Part shown: positions 1 to 38,580 of the stretch, piece by piece
How the letters are laid out: every line of letters begins with the position of its first letter
How positions within the stretch are numbered: the first letter of the stretch is position 1
IMG/VR virus record: IMGVR_UViG_3300036987_000521
Span: 1 to 38,580 of that record
DNA length: 38,580 nucleotides
Reading direction: 5' to 3' (one strand)
From: a virus
Taxonomy: Duplodnaviria > Caudoviricetes
The notes under the pieces: model-generated
The model's input: only the letters and a program-made list of their open reading frames with translations
What the model was told of the DNA's origin: nothing
Databases searched by the model: none
Translations under genes and position numbers: made by a program

Positions 1-306
1 TCACCGGGTTGGCAGCTCATCGTACAACCCCTCGTCTTCAGGCGTGTAGCTATTCAGAAAGGCGCTGTGGCAGCGGATAGGCATCGCCGGGCCGGTCTGG
101 TAGATGATGGGTCGGTAGCGCGGAAGGGGCAACGGTTGCCCGCTCTCTTGGGCGACGGCCAGCCAGGCGGCCTTGGCCAGCTCGAGCTCGGCCACGGCCG
201 CGGCCGGGGTGGGGCCGAAGGCGGAACAAGCGACCAGGTCGGGGATGTCGGCGATGTAGCCGTCGTCTTCCCGGCTATAGAAGATGTTGATGTGGTAGTC
301 GTTCAT
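1..306 (-). CDS. hicB: HicB-family antitoxin (outside the att fragment)
   Basis: YHINIFYSxEDxGYIADIPDLxxCSAFGxTPxxAxxEL...W...GxPxP RNase-H-like HicB motif. Confidence 0.8.
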   Translation of the reverse strand: MNDYHINIFYSREDDGYIADIPDLVACSAFGPTPAAAVAELELAKAAWLAVAQESGQPLPLPRYRPIIYQTGPAMPIRCHSAFLNSYTPEDEGLYDELPTR

Positions 307-1275: not shown

Positions 1276-1413
1276 ATGCCAAAACGCAAACGCAAGAAGC
1301 TCTTTCCGCTGCCCGCGCCCCAGCCGAGCGCCGACCACGGCCGGCTGCTGCGCGTGTTGGCGAAGCTGCTGCGCCAGATCGCCGACGAGTTGACGCGCAT
1401 CGCCGACGGTTAG
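1276..1413 (+). CDS. 45-aa SOS-regulated small protein, candidate antirepressor
   Basis: GAGG RBS then MPKRKRKKLFPLPAPQPSADHGRLLRVLAKLLRQIADELTRIADG*; absent from the ORF track. Confidence 0.65.
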   Translation: MPKRKRKKLFPLPAPQPSADHGRLLRVLAKLLRQIADELTRIADG

Positions 1414-1676
1414 GCCGGGACGGCCGCCGGGTGGGGTGCGCGCCGGCGCCGGGGCTGCGGCCCGGCCTGGTAGATGACGGGCCGATAGCGCGCGGGCGGC
1501 ACGGGCAGCCCGCTCTCCTGGGCGACGGCCAGCCAGGCGGCTTTCGCCAGCTCGAGTTCGGCCAGGGCCGCGGCCGGCGTGGGGCCGAAGGCGGCGCAGG
1601 CGACCAGGTCGGGGATGTCGGCGATGTAGCCGGCGTCTTCCGGGCTGTAGAAGATGTTGATGTGGTAGTCGTTCAT
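1410..1676 (-). CDS. hicB: HicB-family antitoxin, orphan, downstream of the repressor
   Basis: Close paralogue of 1..306; GAGGGG RBS; no HicA adjacent. Confidence 0.8.
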   Translation of the reverse strand: MNDYHINIFYSPEDAGYIADIPDLVACAAFGPTPAAALAELELAKAAWLAVAQESGLPVPPARYRPVIYQAGPQPRRRRAPHPAAVPA

Positions 1677-3768: not shown

Positions 3769-4162
3769 TGCCGATCGGCATGTGCTGCGGTCGGTGCGGG
3801 TGGATCGGGACGTTGCGGCCTGGCGGCTGGCGAACGAGGAGCGCGCCGCCCGGCGCTGGCGGGCGAAGTGGTTGATCGCGATTGTGGTCGGGGTGCTGCT
3901 GCTCATCGGGGTTTGTCTGTTGCTGCCGGGCACGGCCGGGGCGACGGCGGATGCGGCGGTGGGCTGCGTGGGGTATGAGGCGGCCGGCCGGGTGACGAAT
4001 GTGAGCCGGGGGTATGTGGCCGGGTATACGTTCGGGAAGCCGACCTGGTTTTTCGGGGTGCGCACGGCGAAGGTGTTCCGGGTGGGGGAGCGGGTGCTGG
4101 TGCGCGGGTGTCAGGACACGGAGCGCCAGCTGCGGGCCGTGACGCTGCAGCGGTTGCGGTAG
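3719..4162 (+). CDS. Membrane-anchored hypothetical protein
   Basis: TM segment WLIAIVVGVLLLIGVCLLL followed by a small beta-rich domain. Confidence 0.65.
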   Translation: MRDNVLTVATMKTPRFDADRHVLRSVRVDRDVAAWRLANEERAARRWRAKWLIAIVVGVLLLIGVCLLLPGTAGATADAAVGCVGYEAAGRVTNVSRGYVAGYTFGKPTWFFGVRTAKVFRVGERVLVRGCQDTERQLRAVTLQRLR

Positions 4163-4268
4163 GCGTCAGGAGGCAGGGGTCAGGAGTCAGGGGTCAGGAG
4201 TCAGGAGTCAGGGGTCAGGGGTCAGGAGTCAGGGGTCAGGGGGCAGGAGTCAGGGGTCAGGAGGCAGG
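4162..4268 (+). repeat. Heptamer tandem array GG(G/A)GTCA
   Basis: Same unit also at ~6100-6140, 8583-8661, 9095-9194, 15976-16062, 21677-21708, 23807-23921, 25584-25652, 26672-26779. Confidence 0.95.
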
Positions 4269-4741
4269 CCATTCGCCTCGGCGGGGCCGGGGTTGGCATA
4301 GCGCGCAGGGTGGCGGCGCCCGAAGATGAGAAGCCGCGGCGGGTGGCCCAGCGCCCGATTAGACCAAGCTGGTGGGTGGCCCCCGGGCCTTTGTCGTGGA
4401 AAACCGGATAGCTACTACGATTGAAACCGACCGCCGGCGTGATGCCTTTATGGGGCCGGGGCAGCCGCCGGCAGGTCTTCGGAATGCGGAACGGTGAATG
4501 CGGAATGCGGAATGACGGGGTTCGCCCTGTGCGGTAAGGGGCTGTGCTGGCGGCGCTGAGTGTTGGCAGCGTCCTCCTTCGCCAGGCACAGCTCCTTACC
4601 GGGCCGGGTGAGCGCCGGTCTGGTCGCCTCGGTTGCCCCGTTGTGCGCTCCGCATGACCACTGCGCTGGTGGGGCCGCTGGTCGGTCGGGGGGTCGGCCA
4701 GCGGCAAGCGGGGTGGGGGGCGGGGGGCGGGGGGCGGGGGT

Positions 4742-4795
4742 GATCCTTCGACTGCGCACCGGCAAACGGCCGCCGGTGCTCCGCTCAGGATGACA
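4742..4795 (+). repeat. REP-like element GATCCTTCGACT-[hairpin]-CGCTCAGGATGACA (copies 24321-24369, 33922-33972, partial 33975-34017)
   Basis: Conserved ends with variable internal GC hairpins. Confidence 0.85.
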
Positions 4796-5012
4796 CGGTG
4801 ACATGGTGACGTGGTGATCGGGTGAATGCCGGCCAGTGGTCGGTTGACATCGGCGACGCCGGCCGTGGCAGGCGACGGCGTGGTCTCAGCGAGAAGGCGG
4901 CCCCCTGCGGGCGGGCTGTAGGGACAGGATAACTCGCGCCGGACCCTGTAACCGGCGGGTTCACTTTTTAGCGTAGCACAGGCGACTGATTTTGCACCCC
5001 AGGAGTTGGCGC

Positions 5013-5288
5013 ATGTTTATTGCGGGTTTGCTGATTACCGGGTCGTTGTTGGCGATTGGGCATTGGTTCCCCTGGCCCAAGCGGTTGCCGCGGCTGGCGG
5101 CGTATGCCTACGGGGTGGGCTGCTTGTTGATCGGCCAGGCGGTGTGGTTGACGCCGACCGGGCAGGCGGCGCTGTGGTGGCGGCTGGCGGCGTTTGCGGC
5201 GGTGGCCGGGGCGGTGACGGCCGGCTGCTATGGGATTGACTGGGCGTTGAACGCCTGGTTGCGAGGTCGCCATGGTCGCGCGGAGTGA
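5013..5288 (+). CDS. Small multi-TM membrane protein
   Basis: AGGAG RBS; three hydrophobic segments. Confidence 0.7.
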   Translation: MFIAGLLITGSLLAIGHWFPWPKRLPRLAAYAYGVGCLLIGQAVWLTPTGQAALWWRLAAFAAVAGAVTAGCYGIDWALNAWLRGRHGRAE

Positions 5289-5540: not shown

Positions 5541-6158
5541 GTGAACGAGCAGGCGATTTATGCGGCGACGGTGCAGCAGGTGGTGCGGTTGGCGCGGCGG
5601 GCGGCGGCGGCGCGGGATCTGCTGCGGGGGATGGCGGTGTGGGTGGCCGGCCGGGCGTTGGCCGAGGGGGGGAATGCGGATCGGGCGGCGTGGGCGGTGC
5701 TGGAACGCCAGTTGCACCAGGCGCTGGATGCGTTGGCGGCGCCGGCAGGCCCGCCGGCGCCCGACCCGGATGTGACGCCCCGGACGGCATTCTATCGGCA
5801 ACTGTATGGCGGGCGCACGGTGAGCGGGCCGGGGGGCGCGGGCGGGGATGCGCCGGATGGGCCGGTTGAGCCGGTTGAGCCGCTGTTGGAGCCGGTGGTG
5901 ATTGCGATCCCGGCGGGCCTGGTGGAGAAGGGTACGGCGGTGCGCTGGTGGATCGAGGAGGAGCAGCGGGCGACGGAGGCGTATCTCTTCGAGCGGGCCG
6001 ATGATATCCGGCGCAAGTTGATTGCGCCGTTCGGGCTGCTGTATGCGCTGGAGGCGCAGATCGGGCGCCTGGCGGCGTTGTTGACGGGGGCGGCGGGCGG
6101 GAGTCAGGGGTCAGGGGTCAGGGGGCAGGGGTCAGGGGGACGGGGGGGATGGGAATGA
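5541..6158 (+). CDS. Hypothetical protein with heptamer-repeat-encoded tail
   Basis: AGGAG RBS, GTG start. Confidence 0.6.
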   Translation: MNEQAIYAATVQQVVRLARRAAAARDLLRGMAVWVAGRALAEGGNADRAAWAVLERQLHQALDALAAPAGPPAPDPDVTPRTAFYRQLYGGRTVSGPGGAGGDAPDGPVEPVEPLLEPVVIAIPAGLVEKGTAVRWWIEEEQRATEAYLFERADDIRRKLIAPFGLLYALEAQIGRLAALLTGAAGGSQGSGVRGQGSGGRGGWE

Positions 6159-7797: not shown

Positions 7798-9471
7798 ATG
7801 ATACGGATTCCGATTGCGAAGATTCGGCGCGATGGTGGGACGCAGCCCCGTGAGACGTTGGATGCGGCGGTGATCGCGGAGTATGCCGAGGCGATGCGCG
7901 GGGGCACGGAGTTCCCGCCCGTGGTGGTGTTCTATGACGGCACGGCGTATTGGTTGGCGGATGGGTTTCATCGGGTGGCGGCGGCCGAGACGCTGGGCCG
8001 GCCCAACGATACGATCCCGGCGGAGGTGCGCCAGGGGACGCAGCGGGAGGCGATCCTCTGTTCGACGGGGGTCAATGATGCGCACGGGCTGCGCCGCAAT
8101 GACGCCGATAAGCGGCGGGCGGTGCAGACGTTGCTGGCGGATCCCGAATGGGGCCGGTGGAGCAATCGGGAGATCGCCCGGCAGGCGAAGGTCAGCGAGT
8201 CCCTCGTGCGCTCCATGCGCGAGCTATCTGCGTTTCAAACGCAGATAGACGCTTCCCCCGAATCCCCTACTCCCCTCCCCCCCACCTCCACCGAGCGGAC
8301 GGTGACGCGTGCGGGCACGACGTACACGATGCAGACGGGCGGGATCGGCCAGGCGCCGAACTATGCGACGGTGGCGGAGCTCCAGCCGGCGGTGGTGGCG
8401 TGGGTGCAGGCGTTGAGCGCGGATGCGACGGCGCAGCGGCATATCCTGGCGCAGATCGGGCTGCAGAACCAGGTGGGGATGGATCACATCGAGCGGTTGT
8501 ATCAGTTCAGCGGGACGCCGAAGCCGTGCCGGCGGGCGGATTTGAAGTCGGCGGCGGCGGCGGTGTTGCGGGGGTGGGGGCGGAGTCAGGAGTCAGGGGT
8601 CAGGGGGCAGGAGTCAGGGGTCAGGGGGCCGGAGTCAGGGGTCAGGGGGCAGGAGTCAGGGGACGGGAGTCCAGAGGGGCAGGGGGCGACTGGGGCGCAG
8701 CCGGGGGATCCGGACCGGAACGGGCATACGGCGGAGTGGCGGGAGCGGGAGGCGCTGCGGTTGCAGCCATTGGTGGTGAAGTGGCTGAAGCTGCCGAGTG
8801 CGGCGAGTGCGGAGGAGTTGCGCGTGGCGCTGAAGTTGGCGGCCAGTGTGCTCGATTTGGAGGGGTGGCACGCGCGGCGGGGCCGGAACTTCGATTGGGA
8901 GGCGCTGGTGGGGGTGATCGGTAATGGGGTGGATCACGGTGCGCTGCGGCTGGCGGTGCGGGCGGTGTGGGAGGATCTGGGCAAGCGGCTGGCGGCGATG
9001 GACGATGTGGACGATGTGGACGATGTGGACGCGGTGGCGCCGTCGTTTCCGCGGTGGTTGGGGCCGGCGTTACGGCGGGTGGCGGATGGTGGCCGGGGTC
9101 AGGAGGCCGGGGGCCGGAGTCAGGAGGCCGGGGGCAGGCGTCAGGAGGCCGGGGGCAGGCGTCAGGAGGCCGGGGGCAGGCGTCAGGAGTCAGGCCCTTC
9201 GACCGGCTCAGGGAACGGGCCTGGGGGGAATGGGGCGGCCCGGCGACCGGCGGCCCTTCGACAGGCTCAGGGGGCGCTGGATTGGTTGGCGCAGGCGAAG
9301 CATGTGGTGGGGCTGAAGAATACGGCGCTGGATAAGGCGAGTGCGTTCATCGGGCAGTATGGGCCGAGTTGGGCCGAGAGCGAGGATGTGGCGCAGTTGT
9401 TGGCGGAGTTGGCGCTGGCGCGGGCGACGGGGGTGACGGCGGCGAGTTGGGCCGCGAACCCGGTCGCTTAA
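7798..9471 (+). CDS. ParB/Srx N-terminal domain protein with HTH and repeat-derived insertions
   Basis: FPPVVVFYDGTAYWLADGFHRVAA ParB motif; WSNREIARQAKVS HTH. Confidence 0.8.
   Translation: MIRIPIAKIRRDGGTQPRETLDAAVIAEYAEAMRGGTEFPPVVVFYDGTAYWLADGFHRVAAAETLGRPNDTIPAEVRQGTQREAILCSTGVNDAHGLRRNDADKRRAVQTLLADPEWGRWSNREIARQAKVSESLVRSMRELSAFQTQIDASPESPTPLPPTSTERTVTRAGTTYTMQTGGIGQAPNYATVAELQPAVVAWVQALSADATAQRHILAQIGLQNQVGMDHIERLYQFSGTPKPCRRADLKSAAAAVLRGWGRSQESGVRGQESGVRGPESGVRGQESGDGSPEGQGATGAQPGDPDRNGHTAEWREREALRLQPLVVKWLKLPSAASAEELRVALKLAASVLDLEGWHARRGRNFDWEALVGVIGNGVDHGALRLAVRAVWEDLGKRLAAMDDVDDVDDVDAVAPSFPRWLGPALRRVADGGRGQEAGGRSQEAGGRRQEAGGRRQEAGGRRQESGPSTGSGNGPGGNGAARRPAALRQAQGALDWLAQAKHVVGLKNTALDKASAFIGQYGPSWAESEDVAQLLAELALARATGVTAASWAANPVA
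9233..9272 (+). repeat. REP-like CCCTTCGACAGGCTCAGGG element (40-bp identical copy 18346-18385; cores 9193-9213, 25652-25672)
   Basis: Exact repeated sequence; encodes PSTGSG or ALRQAQG when in frame. Confidence 0.85.
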
Positions 9472-15670: not shown

Positions 15671-15720
15671 GACGGCCGGCGGCGCGGGTGGGGGGTGGGG
15701 GATCGCCGGGCCGGGGGCGC

Positions 15721-15975
15721 ATGGAGAAATCTGAGTATCGTCCGCAGCAGCGGGCGGGGTTGATCGTGTGGCTGCTGGCGCAGGGGGTGCGGCTGTCTAC
15801 GGCCGAGGTGGCCCGGCGCACGGCGCGCTCATCGAGCGCGGCGCGGGCGATGTTGAATGGGCTGGCGGCCGTGGTGCCGCTGGTGCAGGATGCGCAGGGG
15901 CGGTGGGCGCTGTGCGACGGGGACGGGCAAATGCGGCCAATGTTGAAAAATCGGGGCGGTGCTGTGGTAGAGTGA
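15721..15975 (+). CDS. HTH protein, candidate late-gene regulator
   Basis: LSTAEVARRTARSSSAARAMLNGL; last gene before the packaging module. Confidence 0.6.
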   Translation: MEKSEYRPQQRAGLIVWLLAQGVRLSTAEVARRTARSSSAARAMLNGLAAVVPLVQDAQGRWALCDGDGQMRPMLKNRGGAVVE

Positions 15976-15976
15976 G
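15946..15976 (+). promoter_or_regulatory. Putative late promoter motif (second copy 21556-21587)
   Basis: AAAAAT-N11/12-TGTGGTAGAGTGAG shared upstream of the terminase and scaffold genes. Confidence 0.6.
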
Positions 15977-16170
15977 GGGCAGGGGTCGGGAGTCAGGGGT
16001 CGGGAGTCAGGGGGCAGGAGTCAGGGGTCAGGGGTCGGGAGTCAGGGGTCGGGAGTCAGGGGTGACGATCGGAAAAAGTCTTCGTGTATCCATTGCGCTG
16101 ACCTGGTAGGCGGCGCCGCAGCGGGCGGCGCGCCCGAAAAAGTGCATGTTTCCTGCATGTTTTGTGCACC

Positions 16171-19575: not shown

Positions 19576-21261
19576 GTGACTGAGGGGCCGGGGCAGATCT
19601 ACGAGGCGGCGGCGCGGTTGCGCCAGGCGGTGCTGCGGCGCGAGCAGCAGGCGGCCGGGCAGTTGATCCGGGCGTATGGGGCGATCTGGCAGCAGTTGCG
19701 GGGGCAGACGGCGCGGCTGTTGGCGCAGTATGCCGCGGCGCAGGCGGCGGCGCAGGCGCAGGGGCAGCCGTTTGGGCCGGCGGCGAGCTGGTTGTTTCAG
19801 TATAACCGGTTGCAGGCGTTGGAGGCGCAGACGGCGGCGGCGCTGCAGGAGTTTGCGGCGCTGGCCGAGACGACGATTGCGGCGGAGCAGCGGGCGGCGG
19901 TGGAACTGGCGGCGGCGCACGCGGAGGAGCTGGTCCGGGATCAGGGGGCAGGGGGCGGGGGTCAGGAGGTGGGGGTCCGGTGGGATCGGTTGCCACGGGA
20001 GGCGGTGGACGACCTGGTGGGTTTTTTGCAGGACGGTTCGCCGTTGCGGGCGTTGTTGGACGGGCTGGCGCCGCAGGGCAGCCTGGCGGTGCGCGATGCG
20101 CTGCTCGGCGGGCTGGCCGCCGGGTTGAATCCCCGGACGGTGGCGCGGCAGGTGCGCGATGGGTTGGGGGTGGGGCTGGCGCGGGCGTTGACGATCAGCC
20201 GGACGGAGATGTTGCGGGCGTATCGGGAGGCCAGTCTGCGCAACTATCAGGCGAACGCCGGGGTGGTGGCGGGGTGGCGGTGGTTGAGCGCCAAGCAGGG
20301 ACGCACGTGTATTGCGTGTCTGATGGCGGATGGCACGGTGCATGGGCTGGCGGAGCGGTTGACGGATCATCCGAACGGCCGCTGCACGATGGTTCCAATC
20401 ACGCGCACGTGGGCCGAGTTGGGGATTGCCGGCATGGCGGAGACGCAGCCGGGGCCGGGGCAAACGGGGGAAGCCTACTTCCGGGGGTTGCCGGCGGCGA
20501 CGCAGCAGCAGATGTTGGGGCGGTCGGCGTGGGCGGCCTGGCAGGGCGGGGCCGTGGAACTGCGCGATTTTGTGGGGATCCGGGCGAGTGCGCTGTGGGG
20601 GCCGACGCATTACGTGCGGAGTTTGCGGGAGATCTTGGGGGAGGCGGAGGCGGCGAAGTGGATCCGGAGCGGAACGAGAAAGACCGCTCGTTCGGAGGCG
20701 TTGCTGCTTGAAGCTGATCGTGTTGCAGCCAAGCATGGTGTATTGGTGTCGCACGGTGATATAATGGGCGTAGCAGAGATTGTGAGTCAATCGCTCGCAC
20801 GCTTTGGGCATGATGAATGGTTGCCACGTGAGATACGCGCCGATGCGAAGCACTTTTTGCCAGCGGAGCGGCAAGCGGTAGTCGGGCGCTACGCGTATAA
20901 AGGCCGCGTGTTTTTTATCAATCCAGAACATGCCTATTGGCAAGGCGGTTCTGCTGGCGCAGCGGAATTCATTGCTAACCTACAAGCCGGTTATCTCTCG
21001 ACAGCCGACGCATTACATCCCTTATGGCATGAATTGGGGCACGCTGCGCATCATCGCGTGTTGCGCCATCAATACGAACGACTCAACTACACGGCGATTT
21101 GGACGAACGCGGAGCAGGACATTGCGGCAATCGTCAGTCAGCGCGCCGCGCACTCTCCTACAGAATTCATGGCCGAAGTATTTGCTTTGCTGATGGTTGG
21201 TGGATCGCCAGACACTGCGCCCCGCTTGCTGTATACACGTTTTGGAGGTTTGATCCCGTGA
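19576..21261 (+). CDS. MuF/SPP1 gp7-like minor head protein with C-terminal zinc metallopeptidase extension
   Basis: ISRTE...W.W...TCIAC...DG...HPNGRC MuF motif; HELGH...EFMAEVF in the lower-GC tail. Confidence 0.88.
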   Translation: MTEGPGQIYEAAARLRQAVLRREQQAAGQLIRAYGAIWQQLRGQTARLLAQYAAAQAAAQAQGQPFGPAASWLFQYNRLQALEAQTAAALQEFAALAETTIAAEQRAAVELAAAHAEELVRDQGAGGGGQEVGVRWDRLPREAVDDLVGFLQDGSPLRALLDGLAPQGSLAVRDALLGGLAAGLNPRTVARQVRDGLGVGLARALTISRTEMLRAYREASLRNYQANAGVVAGWRWLSAKQGRTCIACLMADGTVHGLAERLTDHPNGRCTMVPITRTWAELGIAGMAETQPGPGQTGEAYFRGLPAATQQQMLGRSAWAAWQGGAVELRDFVGIRASALWGPTHYVRSLREILGEAEAAKWIRSGTRKTARSEALLLEADRVAAKHGVLVSHGDIMGVAEIVSQSLARFGHDEWLPREIRADAKHFLPAERQAVVGRYAYKGRVFFINPEHAYWQGGSAGAAEFIANLQAGYLSTADALHPLWHELGHAAHHRVLRHQYERLNYTAIWTNAEQDIAAIVSQRAAHSPTEFMAEVFALLMVGGSPDTAPRLLYTRFGGLIP

Positions 21262-21614: not shown

Positions 21615-22196
21615 ATGCCAGAGCAACAGACGGGGGGCGGGATGCCCAAGGACGCCGGCGGGACGCCGGGCGCGGGGAGTCAGGAGTCAGGAGCCAGGAG
21701 TCAGGAGCCGGGCGGCGGGACGCCGGCCAGCTTCGAGGCGTGGCTGGCGGGGCAGCCGGAGGATGTGCGGGGGCTGTACGAGTCGCACACTAAGGGGTTG
21801 CGCACGGCGCTGGATACGGAGCGGAGTGAGCGGTCGGCGCTGAGCCGGCAATTGCGCGAGCTGCAAGGCAAGGCGGAGAAGGGGTCCGATGCCGAGAAGG
21901 GGCTGGCGGAATTGCAGGGGCGGCTCGAATTGGCCGAGCGCCGGGCGACCTTTGCGGAGGAGGCGCATAAGCCGGAGATCGGCTGTGTGAATGCGAAGGC
22001 GGCGTGGGCGCTGGCGCAGGCGGAGGGGCTGTTCGATCGGCGCGGGAATCCCGATTGGGCCGCGTTGCAGGCCGTGGCGCCGGAGTTGTTCCGTAAGGCG
22101 GTGGGTTCGGCGGATGGCGGCGCGGGGCCGGCCGGACAGCGGTCGGGGGCGACGGGGATGAATGAGCTGCTGCGGCGGGCGATGGAAGGGCGGTAG
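21615..22196 (+). CDS. Capsid scaffolding protein
   Basis: AAGGAG RBS; coiled coil; C-terminal MNELLRRA; precedes the capsid gene. Confidence 0.8.
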   Translation: MPEQQTGGGMPKDAGGTPGAGSQESGARSQEPGGGTPASFEAWLAGQPEDVRGLYESHTKGLRTALDTERSERSALSRQLRELQGKAEKGSDAEKGLAELQGRLELAERRATFAEEAHKPEIGCVNAKAAWALAQAEGLFDRRGNPDWAALQAVAPELFRKAVGSADGGAGPAGQRSGATGMNELLRRAMEGR

Positions 22197-22279
22197 CGGA
22201 TTGCGGATTGCGGATTGCGGATTGCGGATTGCGGATTGCGGATTGCGGATTGCGGATTGCGGATTGCGGATTGCAGATT
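22196..22279 (+). repeat. (GCGGATT)11 plus one variant
   Basis: Fills the whole gap between the scaffold stop and the capsid RBS. Confidence 0.97.
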
Positions 22280-23337: not shown

Positions 23338-23805
23338 ATGCAGACGCAATATGGACGGTTGGCGGCGGCGGGTGCGGTGGCGGTGGTTTTGCTGGCGGCG
23401 GTGCTGGTGTTTTCGGCGGCGTTGAGTATTCAGGCGGCGCCGTTGGCGGCACCGACGCCGATTTCGATCAGCTACAACAGCGATAACACGCGTTATCCGC
23501 TGAACTGGTTCGTGACTGAGGTGATCACCCAGGACACGGCGAGCGCGGCGATTCGGCTGGCGGACTACGAGGCGCTGGACATTCACTATGTGATTGACCA
23601 GGGCGAGACGAACACGGTGACGCTGAAGTTGCAGTTCTCGAACGACAACAGTAATTGGGTGGACGGGGTGAGCCTCGTGAGCGCGAGCACGACGGATCAG
23701 AATGCGTTGCAGCCGTTCCATAATTTCGGGATCTGGACGCGGCTGTATGCGGATGTGGCGACCAGCGACGCGTTGACGGTGACGGCGATCGGGGTGGCGA
23801 AGTAG
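23338..23805 (+). CDS. Beta-sandwich protein with N-terminal signal peptide
   Basis: AGGAGG RBS; hydrophobic leader ending IQA-AP; TVTLKLQFSNDNSNW...WTRL. Confidence 0.75.
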   Translation: MQTQYGRLAAAGAVAVVLLAAVLVFSAALSIQAAPLAAPTPISISYNSDNTRYPLNWFVTEVITQDTASAAIRLADYEALDIHYVIDQGETNTVTLKLQFSNDNSNWVDGVSLVSASTTDQNALQPFHNFGIWTRLYADVATSDALTVTAIGVAK

Positions 23806-23922
23806 GCCGGGGTCAGGGGTCAGGGGTCAGGGGTCAGGAGGCCGGGGTCAGGGGTCAGGGGTCAGGGGTCAGGGGTCAGGGGTCAGGGGTCAGGGGTCAG
23901 GAGGTAGGGATCAGGAGGCAGG

Positions 23923-25203: not shown

Positions 25204-25582
25204 CGCCGATGCGGTGCTGTGGCAATATCTGCGCTGGCAAGGTGCGTTGCGGGCGGTGGTCGGTGAGCGGGTCTATGTGGCGACGGAGTTGCCGGCCGGC
25301 ACGACGCAGGCGCAGTTGCCGCTGGTGTTGGCGACGGCGCGGGGCGGCGGGCAGAATTACAGCTCGACGCTGCTGCGGAGCGCGTATCAGGTGCAGGCGT
25401 TTGGTCGCAATGAAGGTGAGGCGCGGCTGGTGGGCCGACTGGTGTACGATGTGTTGAACGATGCGCACGCGGGGCAGATCCGGTGGGCGCGGTTGGAGCA
25501 GGGGCCGACTCTGTTGCGCGAGCCGCAGACACGCTGGCCGTTTGCGTTGGCGTTCTATCAGTTGGCGGTTGCGAATGGGTGA
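25196..25582 (+). CDS. Tail terminator/completion protein
   Basis: LRAVVGERVY...LP...QVQAFG; position. Confidence 0.7.
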   Translation: MTDADAVLWQYLRWQGALRAVVGERVYVATELPAGTTQAQLPLVLATARGGGQNYSSTLLRSAYQVQAFGRNEGEARLVGRLVYDVLNDAHAGQIRWARLEQGPTLLREPQTRWPFALAFYQLAVANG

Positions 25583-25697
25583 AGGTCAGGGGTCAGGAGT
25601 CAGGGGGCAGGAGTCAGGGGGCAGGAGTCAGGGGGCAGGAGTCAGGGGGCAGGCCCTTCGACAGGCTCAGGGTGCGTCAGGGGACAGGAGGTAGACG

Positions 25698-26075: not shown

Positions 26076-26672
26076 GTGGCAAACGTGATCACGGATATTA
26101 TGATTTCGCCGGTGCGCATCCTGTATGCCGCGGTGGGGGCGACGTTGCCGGCGGATACGGTGGCGGCGGGCGGCGCGTGGCCGGCGGGCTGGACGGAACT
26201 GGGCTGGCAGGAGGAGCCGTTCAAGCTGACCTATGAGTTCGATGTCAAGGATCTCGGTATTCAGCAGAGCCTGGCGCCGGTGGCGCGGCAGCGGATCAAC
26301 GAGAAGTTGACCGGCGAGGGCAAGCTGGCCGAGTTCGACATGGCGCAACTGGCGCTGGCCTGGGGCGGGACGTTGAGCCAGACGGCGGCCGGGACGGGGC
26401 AGCCGGCGAAGGACGAGGTGGCGTTTGGCGATACGCCGGCGTTGACGGCGCGCGCGTGGGGCTTCGAGGGGAACTACGTGTCGGCGGCCGGTAATGTGCA
26501 TCCGATCCGGGTCTTCGTGTGGCGGGCGACGGCGACGGCCGGCGGCGAGGCGATATTCGGTAAGGAGGATGCGCTGGGCGTGACGCTAAAGATCGCGGCG
26601 CTGGCCGATATGTCGAAGAGCGCCGGGCAGCGGTTGTTCAAGTACCAGAAGATTACGGGGCCGGCGACGTAG
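26076..26672 (+). CDS. Major tail tube protein
   Basis: GWTELG...KLTYE...LAEFDMAQLALAWGG; position before chaperone and TMP. Confidence 0.8.
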   Translation: MANVITDIMISPVRILYAAVGATLPADTVAAGGAWPAGWTELGWQEEPFKLTYEFDVKDLGIQQSLAPVARQRINEKLTGEGKLAEFDMAQLALAWGGTLSQTAAGTGQPAKDEVAFGDTPALTARAWGFEGNYVSAAGNVHPIRVFVWRATATAGGEAIFGKEDALGVTLKIAALADMSKSAGQRLFKYQKITGPAT

Positions 26673-26780
26673 GGGTCAGGGGTCAGGAGTCAGGGGTCAG
26701 GGGTCAGGGGTCAGGAGTCAGGAGTCAGGAGTCAGGGGTCAGGGGTCAGGAGTCAGGAGTCAGGAGTCAGGAGGTCAGGC

Positions 26781-34041: not shown

Positions 34042-34287
34042 GTGGCCGGGCGGGTGAGTCAGGTGGTGGTCGAGGCGGCGCTGGCGCCGAGCACGGTGGC
34101 CGGGCGGGTGAGTCAGGTGGTGGTCGAAGTGGTGCATCCGTTGATGCGGCAGGCGGTGATCAGCCAGGTCGTCGTTGAGGTGCTGCGGGAGTATGTGCCG
34201 GCGGTGAGCGGGCCGACGTTGGCGCAGCGGTTGCGGCATGGGATGGGGCTGGTGAACGGGGTGGTGTATGGGGCCGGTAGTGTGTAG
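34042..34287 (+). CDS. Small protein with three SQVVVE repeats
   Basis: AGGAGG RBS; internal repeats. Confidence 0.55.
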   Translation: MAGRVSQVVVEAALAPSTVAGRVSQVVVEVVHPLMRQAVISQVVVEVLREYVPAVSGPTLAQRLRHGMGLVNGVVYGAGSV

Positions 34288-34289
34288 CG

Positions 34290-36644
34290 ATGTGGATTGA
34301 CATCGAGGACCGCGCGGGGAACCGGTTGGGCGCGGGGCCGATTGTGACGGCGACGGGGTGGACGCACACGCGGCGGCTCGATCAGGCCGGGACGTTTTCG
34401 TTCCAGATGCCGGTGAGCGATGCGCGCAGCGCGTTGGCGCAGGTGAAGCGGGTGGCGCGCTGCTGGACTGTCGAAAACGGGACGACGCGTGAGTTGGGCG
34501 CGGGGATCATCGAGCGCCGGCAGTTGACCGTCAAGGCGGACGGTGCGACGTTGCTGGAGGTTTCCGGCGCCGATCTGTTGCGCGAGCTGGCCTATCGCAA
34601 TGTCGGCGAGCTGAACCTGTTCACGACCTGCCGGGAACATCCGGCCGGCGTCATGCTGTTGACCGTGGATCCGCCGGCGACGCTGAGCGAAGCCGCGTGG
34701 ACCGATGGCGCGGTGGGCGATACGGCTACGGCCGCGACGGTGCCCAGCCTGGACGCCGGCGGCGCGCAGTTCCTCTATGTGTCGGCCGGCCGCCAGTTCA
34801 ACAAGCTGCATTTTGTGCTCAGTAGCGGGCAGAGCGTGGTCACGGATCTGCATGTGCAGTACTTCGATGCGGAGAGCGCCGGCTGGAACGATGTGACAAT
34901 TGTCGAAGATACGACGGCGGTGGGCGGTGCGCCGCTGGCGCAGTCGGGCTATCTGACCTGGGATGCGCCGGTGGGGTGGATCACGGAGACGACAACGGAC
35001 ACGCCGGTCTATGATATCCGTATTTTCCCGGATGCGACGTTGGGCGATGTCGGGCTGGCGGATGTTAGCATCGCGTATGATGCGCCGACCGAGACGGCGC
35101 TGTCAACGCTCATGGCGCTGGCGCCCAGTGGGTGGAGCCTCGATACGGTGGCGGGCTACGCTGAGACGCAGCCGGCGCAGGAGATCGGGGCGAACCGGGT
35201 CGCGAACGGCGATTTCGCCGCGTACACGGGCACGCTCGATGACGGGAATAGCGACACGTTTACGGCCTGGACGAATGCCGATGTGGACGATCCCAACGGC
35301 GATACGGTCGAAGCGGTGGCCGGCGGCAGCGGCGCGGTGTGGTTGAAGATCAGCACGGGGGGCACGACGGGGGCACGGCCCAGCGTGGGACAGGCATTGA
35401 CCGTGACGCCGGGGACGGATTATCTGCTGACCTTTTGGAACAAGGGGGACGGCAGCGGCGGGGCGGGGGCCTGGCGGCTGTACGACGAAGCGGGCGGCAC
35501 GGCGTTGAGCGCGTTGACGGAGACGGGCAATGCGACGACGACCTGGACCCCGGCCCGCATCCGGTTCACGGCGCCGGCCAATCGCACGACGGTGTATCTG
35601 CGGCTGTGGGGGCCGGCGGCGGACGATCCGGGGGCGGCCTGGTTCCACACGGTCAGCGTTAAGCAGCGGCTCGGCGGCGAGGTGTATTTGACGCTGAACG
35701 GCGAGACGGTGCTCGAGGCGCTGAATCGGCTCAGTGAGCAGACGGGCGAGCACTTTATATTGGGCAGCGGACGGCAGGTGCGTTGGCTGCGCAGTGATGC
35801 CACGGCAACGGGTGTGCGCCTGACCACGGGCGGCGCGCTGGCCGGCGCAGACGATGCGCGCACGGCCTGGCTGGTGAGCCTGGATGAGGTGCTGGATGCG
35901 TATGACCTGGTCAGCCGGGTCTATCCGTTGGGCGGCGGCACGGGCCAGAACCGGGTGGATCTGACCCACTGCACGCGGCCGGCGCCGGACGGTTATACGC
36001 TCGATCTGACGGCGGGCTATTTGGAGCGCGATGCGGCGGTGACGGCGCTGGGGCGCATTGACTATCGGTTGGATTTCCCCGACATCAATGCGGCGGCGCC
36101 CGATGCTACGCAATTGGCGTTTGCGGCGAACAGCCTGCTCGAGCGGGCGTATGTCTGGCTGAAGCGCCACAGTGCGACTTCGACGGATCCATTGACCGGC
36201 GATGCGCCCCGCGCGTATCGGGCGACGGTCGTCAAGTTGCTGCAAGCCGTGCTGCCCGGCTACACCGTCCACCTGGCGTATCGGGAGGTGTGCGCGGGCG
36301 TGGTCACGGTGCAGATCGCCCAGGACGTGTGTGTGTTGAGCAGCACGGTGCAGGTGGATGGGCGCGGCGTGCGCACGGTGGCGCTGGAGTTGGGGACGGT
36401 AGATCAGCCGTTGGGCAGCGATACGGAGTTGCTGGCCTATATCCTGCGCCAGCAGCGGGCGAGTCGGGCGCAGACGCCGGCCAACGAACATTATAGTTCG
36501 TCGGGCGCGGGGGTGATCGTCGGTGCGGGGGTGCGCAATGGCCGGGTGACGGGGGTCGTGCGGCGGCTGGGGATTACGGAAGACGTGCCGGCGACGGCCA
36601 CGTTGCAGGTGCGCAATGGCGTGGTGACGGGGTATACTACGTAA
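34290..36644 (+). CDS. Tail hub/Tal-like host-specificity protein with carbohydrate-binding insert
   Basis: TRRLDQAGTFSF, LVSRVYPLGG hub motifs; NGDFA...QALTVTPGTDYLLTFW...RFTAP CBM4/9-like insert. Confidence 0.75.
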   Translation: MWIDIEDRAGNRLGAGPIVTATGWTHTRRLDQAGTFSFQMPVSDARSALAQVKRVARCWTVENGTTRELGAGIIERRQLTVKADGATLLEVSGADLLRELAYRNVGELNLFTTCREHPAGVMLLTVDPPATLSEAAWTDGAVGDTATAATVPSLDAGGAQFLYVSAGRQFNKLHFVLSSGQSVVTDLHVQYFDAESAGWNDVTIVEDTTAVGGAPLAQSGYLTWDAPVGWITETTTDTPVYDIRIFPDATLGDVGLADVSIAYDAPTETALSTLMALAPSGWSLDTVAGYAETQPAQEIGANRVANGDFAAYTGTLDDGNSDTFTAWTNADVDDPNGDTVEAVAGGSGAVWLKISTGGTTGARPSVGQALTVTPGTDYLLTFWNKGDGSGGAGAWRLYDEAGGTALSALTETGNATTTWTPARIRFTAPANRTTVYLRLWGPAADDPGAAWFHTVSVKQRLGGEVYLTLNGETVLEALNRLSEQTGEHFILGSGRQVRWLRSDATATGVRLTTGGALAGADDARTAWLVSLDEVLDAYDLVSRVYPLGGGTGQNRVDLTHCTRPAPDGYTLDLTAGYLERDAAVTALGRIDYRLDFPDINAAAPDATQLAFAANSLLERAYVWLKRHSATSTDPLTGDAPRAYRATVVKLLQAVLPGYTVHLAYREVCAGVVTVQIAQDVCVLSSTVQVDGRGVRTVALELGTVDQPLGSDTELLAYILRQQRASRAQTPANEHYSSSGAGVIVGAGVRNGRVTGVVRRLGITEDVPATATLQVRNGVVTGYTT

Positions 36645-37399
36645 TGGCCTATAAGCGGGTGCTGTTTGTGGCGCCGGGAGATAGCGGGCTGGATGTGCTG
36701 CCGGAGATTGATGCGCTGTATGAGTTGGGGTATCAGACGCAATCGTTGCAGGGGCGGGTGACGCGGCAGCGGTTGTTCGATGCGGTGCGGCGGCAGGAGT
36801 TCGATGTGATCCACGTGGCGGCGCATATCGGGCCGGCGGGGGTGCAACTGTCGGACGGGGAGCTGCTGGATGGGCCGGCGCTGGTGCAGGTGGCGCGCTC
36901 GTGCAAGGCGACGCTGGTGTTTCTGAATGGCTGCGAGAGCGCGGAGCTGGGGCAAATGCTGGTGGATGACGATGTGCCGGCGGTGATTTGCACGTTGGCG
37001 ACAGCGCCGGATGTGGTGGCGAAGGAGACGGCGCAGACGTTCTATCGGTTGCTGGTGCGGCACGAGGATCTCCGCCAGGCGTATCACGATAGTAAGCCGG
37101 CGGCGCTGCGGGGCGGGTATACGTTCCTGTCGGACGGCAAGCTGATCGAGATGCAGTTCGGGCCGATCATCAGCCGGCTGGATCTGTTGGCGCAGGCGCA
37201 GACGCAGGATGCGGTGGAGCACGCCGATTTCCGCAAGCTCCTCGCCGATATTTGCATCGAGCTGGGGGCGTTCCGGGAGATCGCCGGGAACCTGGGGCGG
37301 TTCAAGAGTTCAATGATCTGGGTGCTGGTGGTGGGGCTGACCGGTTCGCTGGCGGTGCAACTGCTGATGACGTTCATTGGCCGGGATCTGGTGCGGTGA
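36644..37399 (+). CDS. CHAT-domain (caspase-like) protein with C-terminal TM helix
   Basis: LDVLPEI, FDVIHVAAH, LVFLNGCES, AQTFYR motifs; TM IWVLVVGLTGSLAVQLLMTFI. Confidence 0.75.
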   Translation: MAYKRVLFVAPGDSGLDVLPEIDALYELGYQTQSLQGRVTRQRLFDAVRRQEFDVIHVAAHIGPAGVQLSDGELLDGPALVQVARSCKATLVFLNGCESAELGQMLVDDDVPAVICTLATAPDVVAKETAQTFYRLLVRHEDLRQAYHDSKPAALRGGYTFLSDGKLIEMQFGPIISRLDLLAQAQTQDAVEHADFRKLLADICIELGAFREIAGNLGRFKSSMIWVLVVGLTGSLAVQLLMTFIGRDLVR

Positions 37400-37710
37400 G
37401 CGAGCCGGTGGCGCTGCTGCTGGCGTTCGGCTTTGGGCTGGCGTACAATGCGCTGCTGACCCGGCGGATGGCGGCCGACGGCGGGCGGCCGCGGCCGATG
37501 GCGTTGTGGGTGGTCGGCGGGGTGCTGGCGACGTTGGCGCTGTCGGCGCTGGTGGAGCACCAGACGATCCGCCTGGTGCTCCACTGGCAGGGGCGGCCGA
37601 TCCAACTGACGAATGCGCAACATGCGGCGTTGTTCGAGTTGCGCTTTTTTGTGGCGACCGGTGCGCCGCTGGCGGCCGGGAGTTTGTGGCGCTATTGGCA
37701 GCGTTTATAG
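37396..37710 (+). CDS. Three-TM membrane protein, holin-like
   Basis: GTGA overlap with the CHAT gene; 104 aa, three hydrophobic segments; last late gene. Confidence 0.6.
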   Translation: MSEPVALLLAFGFGLAYNALLTRRMAADGGRPRPMALWVVGGVLATLALSALVEHQTIRLVLHWQGRPIQLTNAQHAALFELRFFVATGAPLAAGSLWRYWQRL

Positions 37711-38580
37711 TTGGTGATCTACGGGGCCGTGTTCCTGGTGGGCGGTGGCCCGGTCGGTGTCAACGAGGGCCAGGTAGCTGCGGAGCACTTCCAGGGTGGT
37801 GTGGCCCAGCATGGACTGCAGGATGTAGATGTTCATGCCGGAACGCAGGCTCCACAGGGCGAAGGTGCGGCGGAAGGTGTGGGGGTGGCAGTGGGCGACG
37901 CCGGCGCGCCGGCCGATGCGCTGGCAGGTCTTGAGGAGCAGGTTGCGGGTGAAGGGGCGGGCGTCGGTGGTGGTGAAGAGCGGGCCGGTCGTGCGGCCCA
38001 GCAGATGTTTGAGCACCTCGCGCTTGGTGCGGGCGCCGATGTAGGTGGTGCGGGGCTTGCCGCCCTTGCCCGCGCGCACGCGGACGGCGCCGGTGGCGAG
38101 ATCCACGTCGGGGACGGTGAGGGCGCAGAGTTCGGAGGCCCGGACGCCGGAATCTATGAGGAAGAGCAGCAGCGTCTTGTCACGGGCGTTGGCGGCGGCG
38201 GCCAGCAGTTTGCGGAAGTCGTCACGGGTGAAGGCGGGGCCGATGGCTTTGCCGGGCGGTGGGATGGTGACGTTGCGCAGGGGGTCGGTGGTCAGCAGGT
38301 CTTCGGCGGTGAGGAAGCGCAGCCAGGCGCGCAGGGCGCGGCCGTAGTCGTGGACGGTCCAGGCGGTGTATTGGCGCTCGGCGAGGTCGCGCAGGTAGCT
38401 GCGGATGAGTTGGGGCGTGATTTCGTCGGCATAGAAGACGCCGTGATCGTGGAGCCAGGCGTTGGCGCGGGTGAGCAGGTCGCGATAGTTTTCGATGGTG
38501 CGCGGGGCGCGGCGCTCGGCGCGTTTGGCGTCGAGGAACAGGTCGAGGGCGGTGGCGAGGGGCAGGCGGACAGGTGGCAT
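37705..38580 (-). CDS. int: Tyrosine integrase (XerC/D-like)
   Basis: DSGVRASEL, GKGGK, HTFRR, LGH, catalytic Y; lacks the IntI-specific insertion. Confidence 0.95.
   Translation of the reverse strand: MPPVRLPLATALDLFLDAKRAERRAPRTIENYRDLLTRANAWLHDHGVFYADEITPQLIRSYLRDLAERQYTAWTVHDYGRALRAWLRFLTAEDLLTTDPLRNVTIPPPGKAIGPAFTRDDFRKLLAAAANARDKTLLLFLIDSGVRASELCALTVPDVDLATGAVRVRAGKGGKPRTTYIGARTKREVLKHLLGRTTGPLFTTTDARPFTRNLLLKTCQRIGRRAGVAHCHPHTFRRTFALWSLRSGMNIYILQSMLGHTTLEVLRSYLALVDTDRATAHQEHGPVDHQL

What the first reader, a model, noticed from the sequence alone, without database searches (positions are those of the whole stretch)
36644..37710. Membrane-anchored caspase-like CHAT protease plus holin-like gene in place of an endolysin
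Seen: the last two late genes, translationally coupled to the tail module, encode a CHAT-like domain keeping His (VIHVAAH) and Cys (FLNGCES) with a helical linker and C-terminal TM, then a 3-TM protein. I recognise no amidase, muramidase or M23/M15 peptidase in the window. Established: lysis cassettes usually sit here, and many Chloroflexota lack canonical peptidoglycan. Inference: a protease-based lysis or cell-death system, or alternatively an anti-defence or exclusion module.
Basis: partly seen in the sequence, partly recalled or inferred. Interest (0 to 1): 0.8.

Follow-up and report, generated by a model that had tools for sequence, protein, structure and literature searches.

The report
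Phage membrane-tethered caspase-like lysis accessory
A Chloroflexota-type prophage ends its late genes with a small caspase-fold protease, predicted to hang on the inner face of the host membrane, and a three-helix membrane protein; relatives keep this protease beside ordinary wall-cutting enzymes, so it likely helps open the membrane at lysis rather than replacing the endolysin.

Summary
ORF 36644-37399 is a CHAT/caspase-fold domain (His61, Cys97), a coiled-coil linker and one C-terminal membrane helix. It overlaps the last tail gene and a 104-aa three-helix gene. No endolysin was found in the window (ten families in six frames).

The reading 'in place of an endolysin, wall-less host' is not supported. 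All 6 Anaerolineae genomes carrying the gene have murG and mraY. Three lineages keep it near confirmed peptidoglycan hydrolases (M23+SLT, M23, Hydrolase_2). Its protease domain is predicted to be cytoplasmic.

It belongs to a large, mostly viral family (dyad in 154 of 163). The gene sits at many places in late operons, often beside small membrane genes. The C-terminal half looks like an XhlA-type holin partner, on weak profile hits.

Best reading (0.45): a lysis accessory whose protease, switched on by clustering in the membrane, triggers a two-part holin. Substrate and activity are untested. Still unexplained: this prophage and two terminally repeated relatives show no recognisable endolysin. 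I found no description in print.

The parts
34290..36644 (+). Last tail gene (784 aa; weak Sipho_Gp37 and CBM_4_9 hits); its stop overlaps the CHAT start
36644..37399 (+). CHAT-TM gene, 251 aa: minimal caspase-fold protease, coiled coil, C-terminal membrane helix
36644..37138 (+). CHAT/caspase-fold domain (residues 1-165), no sensor domain, no signal peptide
   Evidence: best fold match SAVED-CHAT 8tl0, Z 18.3, rmsd 2.3, 160 aligned; Foldseek E 1.8e-8
36824..36826 (+). His61, predicted catalytic His
   Evidence: 155 of 163; aligns to the HFIGHG His of 8tl0
36932..36934 (+). Cys97, predicted nucleophile
   Evidence: 162 of 163; aligns to the first Cys of VLNACC in 8tl0
37139..37321 (+). Flexible hinge (about 165-177) and coiled-coil linker
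   Evidence: pLDDT under 50 at 165-177; heptad score above own shuffles in 113 of 115 members
37322..37378 (+). C-terminal membrane helix (227-245), predicted N-in
   Evidence: K+R 2.2 before versus 0.7 after, mean of 109 single-helix members
37396..37710 (+). 104-aa three-helix membrane protein (GTG start), conserved directly behind CHAT-TM in the nearest relatives; candidate holin partner
   Evidence: no family or fold match
37705..38580 (-). Tyrosine integrase converging on the late operon and closing it

Best explanation
The gene encodes a caspase-fold protease joined by a coiled coil to one membrane helix, and it likely acts as the trigger part of a two-component membrane-lysis module, working with a wall hydrolase rather than instead of one. 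Steps. (1) Shown from sequence: it is coupled to the late operon, with no promoter-like site in front. (2) Predicted: it is anchored N-in, with the protease in the cytoplasm. (3) Inferred: it accumulates late and clusters through the coiled coil, which would activate the protease, as oligomerisation does for SAVED-CHAT. (4) Inferred, untested: it cuts its own hinge (about 165-177) or the neighbouring membrane protein, which would free an XhlA-like coiled-coil/helix piece to cooperate with the three-helix partner, as XhlA/XhlB and SPP1 gp24.1/gp26 do. (5) The wall would then be cut by an endolysin where one is encoded. In this prophage none is recognisable, so either an unrecognised enzyme, host autolysins, or a lost gene must be assumed.
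For: Fold and dyad. The CHAT domain is more conserved than linker or helix (mean entropy 2.36, 3.27, 3.14). Mostly viral: three nearest Atlas clusters 76-100% viruses; 13 host CHAT domains form their own starred clade. In full lysis cassettes: G042 has CHAT-TM, a 170-aa and a 95-aa membrane gene, then a 754-aa M23+SLT enzyme; G235 has an M23 enzyme as next gene, 840 bp on; G052/G053 has Hydrolase_2 about 3 kb on; G046 has SH3_3 close behind and G047 a homologue directly in front; G049 has a PHROG holin two genes on (E 7e-12). A small membrane gene lies within two genes in 21 of 32 loci versus 51 of 140 other genes (p 0.005). XhlA-type hits: PHROG 1193 in 4 of 127 members (best 5.9e-6), holin PHROG 689 in 2 of 127, Pfam XhlA in 1 of 127. 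gp24.1 and XhlA have a C-terminal helix and kill only with their two-helix partner (PMC6316719, passage). Hosts make wall precursors.
Against: No activity, substrate or expression data. The XhlA-type hits are few and weak, could come from any coiled coil plus helix, and are absent for this protein. With two or more helices required, the neighbour excess is not significant (10 of 32 versus 22 of 140, p 0.07), and the loci are not independent. Eight related loci carry the gene among head-tail connector genes, mostly with no holin beside it. Two homologues are fused to a terminase small subunit and have no membrane helix. The partner has no holin match, and remote relatives of it occur in an early region of G048. 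His61 is followed by Ile, not the usual Gly (Gly in 80 of 163). The window, G031, G051, G045 and G037 show no endolysin.
Confidence: 0.45

Rival explanations
1. The protease cuts a host membrane-associated protein (wall synthesis, an autolysin regulator or a pore-forming death protein), so the host destroys its own envelope and a phage endolysin becomes optional.
For: No recognisable hydrolase in the window or in two records with direct terminal repeats, G031 and G051. Hydrolase-free and hydrolase-bearing members are neighbours in the tree (L089 with L094; window with L132). The protease is predicted to be cytoplasmic and membrane-bound.
Against: Endolysins are kept in at least three lineages. 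Lysin parts in these phages are divergent and split (210-aa proteins without a Pfam hit beside SH3 or Hydrolase_2), so absence may be failure to detect. No substrate is known.
Confidence: 0.17
2. Late anti-defence or superinfection-exclusion protease that cuts or jams host immune proteins at the membrane.
For: Hosts are rich in CHAT proteins (25 of 28 genomes match). Nearest solved relatives are immune proteins, SAVED-CHAT and DdvA. The gene moves about within genomes.
Against: It overlaps or abuts late genes on the late strand; no promoter-like site precedes it here. It recurs inside lysis cassettes. Phage members do not nest among the 13 host CHAT domains sampled, although two small phage branches join them at unstarred forks.
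Confidence: 0.15
3. Morphogenesis protease acting at the membrane on packaging or virion proteins.
For: Eight related loci lie among head-tail connectors; several lie directly before the terminase; two CHAT-terminase small subunit fusions; a protein with an N-terminal hydrophobic segment follows the capsid gene here and in relatives.
Against: 0 of 22 records picked by this terminase carry the gene. Several carriers have their own prohead protease (S78 in G045). Lysis genes also sit before the terminase in G042.
Confidence: 0.13
4. One reading: the protease replaces the endolysin because the host has a protein wall and no peptidoglycan.
For: No endolysin in the window. Litorilinea has an outer proteinaceous layer (PMC13319060, passages). 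The window's own host genome was not available.
Against: murG and mraY in 6 of 6 carrier genomes. Litorilinea has an intact pathway and a peptidoglycan-like layer. In the passages read, loss of the pathway is placed in Dehalococcoidales and SAR202 (PMC10608941). No signal peptide in 127 of 127 members. It coexists with endolysins.
Confidence: 0.05

Closest known systems
SAVED-CHAT of Haliangium type III-B CRISPR (PDB 8tl0; bioRxiv 10.1101/2023.06.23.546230, passages)
   Same: Best fold match (Z 18.3). His and Cys align to its HFIGHG and VLNACC motifs. It is activated by oligomerisation and cuts one partner.
   Different: Here there is no SAVED or other sensor domain, the protein has a membrane anchor, and it is phage-encoded in late operons.
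DdvA TPR-CHAT anti-sigma factor of Myxococcus xanthus (PDB 8rot; PMC11506125, passages)
   Same: CHAT domain tied to a membrane helix by a linker proposed as the self-cleavage site; second fold match (Z 14.6).
   Different: DdvA's CHAT is periplasmic, C-terminal and TPR-regulated, in host defence. Here it is N-terminal, predicted cytoplasmic and minimal.
Two-component holins XhlA/XhlB of PBSX and gp24.1/gp26 of SPP1 (PMC6316719, PMC5589764, passages)
   Same: A protein with a single C-terminal helix beside a multi-helix membrane protein in a lysis cassette; weak profile hits in a few members.
   Different: Those carry no enzyme domain and always come with an endolysin. The partner here is unrelated by profile and differs between lineages.
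Canonical endolysins (amidase, M23, GH25, SLT, CHAP)
   Same: Gene position at the end of the late operon in this prophage.
   Different: No wall-hydrolase or wall-binding domain; predicted to face the cytoplasm; found together with true endolysins.

Membership tests
CHAT / caspase-like cysteine protease | Pfam CHAT above the curated cut-off | tested here: met
   32.9 bits versus 24; 123 of 127 members match at E 0.01
CHAT / caspase-like cysteine protease | Caspase-hemoglobinase fold | tested here: met
   8tl0 Z 18.3, 8rot Z 14.6, separase Z 12.7, Dronc Z 12.2
CHAT / caspase-like cysteine protease | His-Cys dyad at the homologous positions | tested here: met
   One search aligns them to a His and Cys 47 residues apart in 8tl0 by my count, the spacing of H375/C422; both kept in 154 of 163
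CHAT / caspase-like cysteine protease | Gly after the catalytic His (recalled caspase motif) | tested here: inconclusive
   Ile62 here; Gly in 80, Ser 31, Ala 31 of 163
CHAT / caspase-like cysteine protease | Dyad distance and proteolytic activity | not testable with these tools
   Model coordinates were not returned; no assay
Immune CHAT effectors (SAVED-CHAT, TPR-CHAT, DdvA) | Fused sensor or regulatory domain | tested here: not met
   CHAT starts at residue 1 and no other domain is found
XhlA/gp24.1 holin partner | Soluble helical part plus one C-terminal membrane helix | tested here: met
XhlA/gp24.1 holin partner | Profile match | tested here: inconclusive
   None for this protein; 4 of 127 members PHROG 1193, 1 of 127 Pfam XhlA
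XhlA/gp24.1 holin partner | Stand-alone small protein without enzyme domain | tested here: not met
   Fused to CHAT; it may work like XhlA but is not filed as one
XhlA/gp24.1 holin partner | Kills only together with the second holin | not testable with these tools
   Needs co-expression
Holin (104-aa partner) | Small multi-helix membrane protein in a late operon | tested here: met
Holin (104-aa partner) | Match to a known holin family or fold | tested here: inconclusive
   No hit
Holin (104-aa partner) | Timed membrane lesion | not testable with these tools
   Needs an assay
Endolysin | Peptidoglycan-hydrolase catalytic or wall-binding domain | tested here: not met

The most novel reading that the evidence does not exclude
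Chloroflexota phages carry their own caspase-like executioner: a membrane-clustered protease that opens the cell by cutting a phage or host membrane protein, in the manner of caspase-gasdermin, and thereby makes the endolysin optional, which is why this prophage and two terminally repeated relatives have none.
Probability: 0.2. Interest if true: 0.9.

Novelty: new variant of a known kind. Interest (0 to 1): 0.63.

Why it matters
Characterised bacterial CHAT proteases in the papers I read serve host immunity. A minimal, membrane-anchored form kept in phage late operons and lysis cassettes would be a protease-gated step in lysis, and would show how phages leave filamentous Chloroflexota with their multilayered envelope. 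A 251-aa protein with one Cys control and a coupled partner is easy to test. The endolysin-free carriers are also direct targets for finding new wall hydrolases or an endolysin-independent route.

Tried and rejected
Control by terminase: 80 viral loci were found and 22 long records searched; 0 had CHAT-TM. Eight were fetched but share only 1-9 of 30-53 proteins with carriers, so they are probably other host lineages; dropped as a control for endolysin content and not scanned with Pfam.
L132: the 203-aa gene before CHAT-TM looks C39-like by recalled motifs only. No Pfam, PHROG or PDB hit, so it is not counted as a hydrolase. Its SH3 hit is under the cut-off.
The 210-aa proteins of G046, G047 and G053 resemble the middle domain of the G042 enzyme only weakly (pairwise E 0.001-0.09): a lead. 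Profiles built from them and from the two lysin N-terminal domains found nothing in the window.
Complex prediction of CHAT-TM with its partner was not available, so binding is untested.
No hit in annotated phage records. No partner relative in viral contigs. Longer homologues were only host-type CHAT proteins. No fold match for the partner.
No RNA holder listed. Contigs confirm 34098-38580 without differences, possibly from the source sample, and do not show att sites.
Gaps at 4163-5012 and 15671-16161 hold heptamer repeats and no enzyme-like frame.
Broad alignments were too diverse for pattern scans, so sub-families A3, A6, A7 and A8 are under-sampled in the synteny survey.
Full report
Setting. 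The window is an IMG/VR provirus record of 38,580 bases from a 67.7-kb contig. It runs from HicB-like genes and a repressor pair through replication, terminase, portal, capsid and siphovirus tail genes to an integrase on the minus strand. The record is cut exactly at a stop codon on the left and at the integrase start on the right, so att sites are not in view. The gene order is that of a whole temperate phage (inference), but CheckV gives 50%.

Observation. ORF 36644-37399 overlaps the stop of the last tail gene and is overlapped by a GTG-start gene, 37396-37710, which meets the integrase end. It matches Pfam CHAT above cut-off. The model has a caspase-type domain at 1-165, a low-confidence hinge at 165-177 and one long helix ending in a hydrophobic segment. 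The best structural matches are SAVED-CHAT (Z 18.3, rmsd 2.3, 160 aligned), DdvA (14.6), separase and caspases. His61 and Cys97 align to a His and Cys of 8tl0 that I count 47 residues apart, the spacing of its catalytic H375/C422. I could not measure the dyad distance. The partner folds as three helices with a hairpin and has no family or fold match.

Family. A profile search gave 659 representatives at E 1e-10 and listed the best 150; many weaker hits will be host CHAT proteins. Of 163 proteins in hand, 154 keep both His and Cys and 149 have one or two C-terminal hydrophobic segments. Among 127 near full-length members, none has an N-terminal hydrophobic segment, basic residues sit before the helix (2.2 versus 0.7), and the linker is heptad-like in 113 of 115. 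This predicts a cytoplasmic protease on a coiled-coil stalk. Some members extend outside as long Pro/Thr stalks, and two lack the helix and are fused to a terminase small subunit. The three nearest Atlas clusters are 76-100% viral. At E 1e-24, 6 of 401 Anaerolineae genomes carry a member; only 6 candidates per genome were scored, so this is a lower bound. In a tree of 31 phage-type and 13 host domains the host domains form a starred clade, and the window protein groups with L131, L132 and L003 at unstarred forks. The nearest named relative is a Caldilineales MAG with the same order: tail, CHAT-TM, three-helix partner. The partner also follows CHAT-TM in L131 and L133.

Position. I read gene tables for 33 distinct loci, after dropping duplicate loci of the same contig and near-copies L069, L074 and L095. 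Part was cut; most of it was shown again. Where the contig is long enough to judge, the gene is on the late strand. It lies at the tail end in about 5 loci, before or just after the terminase or at the start of the late region in about 13, among head or neck genes in about 10 (8 of them one lineage), and around the tape measure gene in 3; two contigs are too short. So it is not conserved at one lysis position. A small membrane gene lies within two genes in 21 of 32 loci versus 51 of 140 other genes (p 0.005). With two or more helices the figures are 10 of 32 versus 22 of 140 (p 0.07). One locus was lost by my gene caller, the caller missed known membrane neighbours in L003, L073 and L133, and the loci are not independent.

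Endolysin test. In the window nothing was found, nor with local profiles from relatives' lysins. In relatives the picture is mixed. G042 has CHAT-TM, two membrane genes and a 754-aa M23+SLT enzyme before the terminase. G235 has an M23 enzyme as next gene. G052/G053, one phage with a complete record, has Hydrolase_2. G046 and G047 have SH3 genes nearby, and G049 a PHROG holin. Against this, G031 and G051 (direct terminal repeats; CheckV 68 and 73%), G045 (97%, with its CHAT gene in two pieces) and G037 (55%) show none. The Pfam scan covered 296 of 309 representative proteins of 95-750 aa from 10 records; G041, G042 and G047 were not in it. Most of the 26 viral records are fragments. So the protease coexists with endolysins and cannot be their general substitute, but endolysin-free carriers exist and are unexplained.

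Host wall. All 6 carrier genomes have murG (3 over cut-off, all E 2e-65 or better) and mraY (6 over cut-off). In the order of the nearest relative 27 of 28 have murG. Litorilinea aerophila has an intact pathway and a peptidoglycan-like layer under further layers (PMC13319060, passages). Loss is reported for Dehalococcoidales and SAR202 (PMC10608941, passages). The window's own host was not available.

Mechanism. The C-terminal half has the shape of XhlA and SPP1 gp24.1, which carry one C-terminal helix and kill only together with a two-helix holin (PMC6316719, one passage; PMC5589764, passages). Profile support is weak: 4 of 127 members hit the PHROG hemolysin family, 2 a holin family, 1 Pfam XhlA, and this protein none. 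SAVED-CHAT is activated by oligomerisation, and DdvA is proposed to cut the linker to its own membrane helix (PMC11506125, passages). I therefore infer a protease that clusters in the membrane late in infection, switches on, and cuts itself or the partner to release a membrane lesion (0.45). Rivals: cutting a host envelope or death protein so that the endolysin is optional (0.17); late anti-defence or exclusion (0.15); morphogenesis (0.13); endolysin substitute in a wall-less host (0.05). No step beyond sequence, fold and gene context is shown.

Novelty. Five full-text searches aimed at a phage-encoded CHAT or caspase-like lysis protein (listings and abstract starts only) and one on Chloroflexota phage endolysins showed no description. 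The library lacks most subscription papers, and I read no supplements; family tables in such files could list it. Annotated phage records gave no hit. Two earlier AI notes of this scan describe what seems to be the same family in other phages; they agree but are not independent evidence. Interest 0.63.

Noticed in passing
window 23338-23805 (+): The gene after the major capsid protein has an N-terminal hydrophobic, signal-like segment. Homologues follow the capsid gene in L066, L074 and G037, and similar-looking genes in L067 and G045: a possibly exported or membrane-anchored capsid-associated protein.
   Followed up: partly
P0083, P0149: CHAT domain fused to a terminase small subunit, with no membrane helix; no DNA context seen.
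   Followed up: partly
P0043, P0045, P0046, P0049, P0069, P0077, P0118; L134:5820-7037: Members with a long Pro/Thr stalk after the membrane helix; several share a short Cys-X7-10-Cys loop and a terminal Cys motif.
   Followed up: no
window 1-306 and 1410-1676 (-): Two HicB-like genes, 89% identical over 227 nt, with an AT-richer stretch between them.
   Followed up: no
window 4150-4270, 8570-8680, 15975-16070, 23800-23920, 25580-25660, 26660-26780, 22196-22279: Many arrays of 7-nt repeats (GGGGTCA/GGAGTCA; GCGGATT) between and inside genes, strand-biased.
   Followed up: no
window 19576-21261 (+): Head morphogenesis (MuF) protein with a long C-terminal extension holding an HELGH metallopeptidase-like motif (motif label recalled).
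   Followed up: no
L081:9989-10394 (G045): CHAT-TM gene in two pieces; the second is a 65-aa coiled-coil plus helix ORF with a weak holin hit (E 0.0065).
   Followed up: partly
L119:3623-4252, L082:11154-11786, L083:7210-7821, L126:8635-10899: Unnamed 210-aa proteins beside SH3 or Hydrolase_2 genes weakly resemble the middle domain of the G042 lysin: possibly split lysins.
   Followed up: partly
G049 (L112:4032-4934; L114:11913-14276): A carrier phage with a subtilase after the tail genes and a RAMP, Cas6 and PAPS-reductase-like trio, suggesting a type IV-like CRISPR module (label recalled).
   Followed up: no
window 5541-6158; L003:11063-11323: The gene behind the partner in L003 resembles, by eye, the C-terminal part of an early-region protein of the window, which itself follows another small membrane gene (5013-5288).
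   Followed up: no
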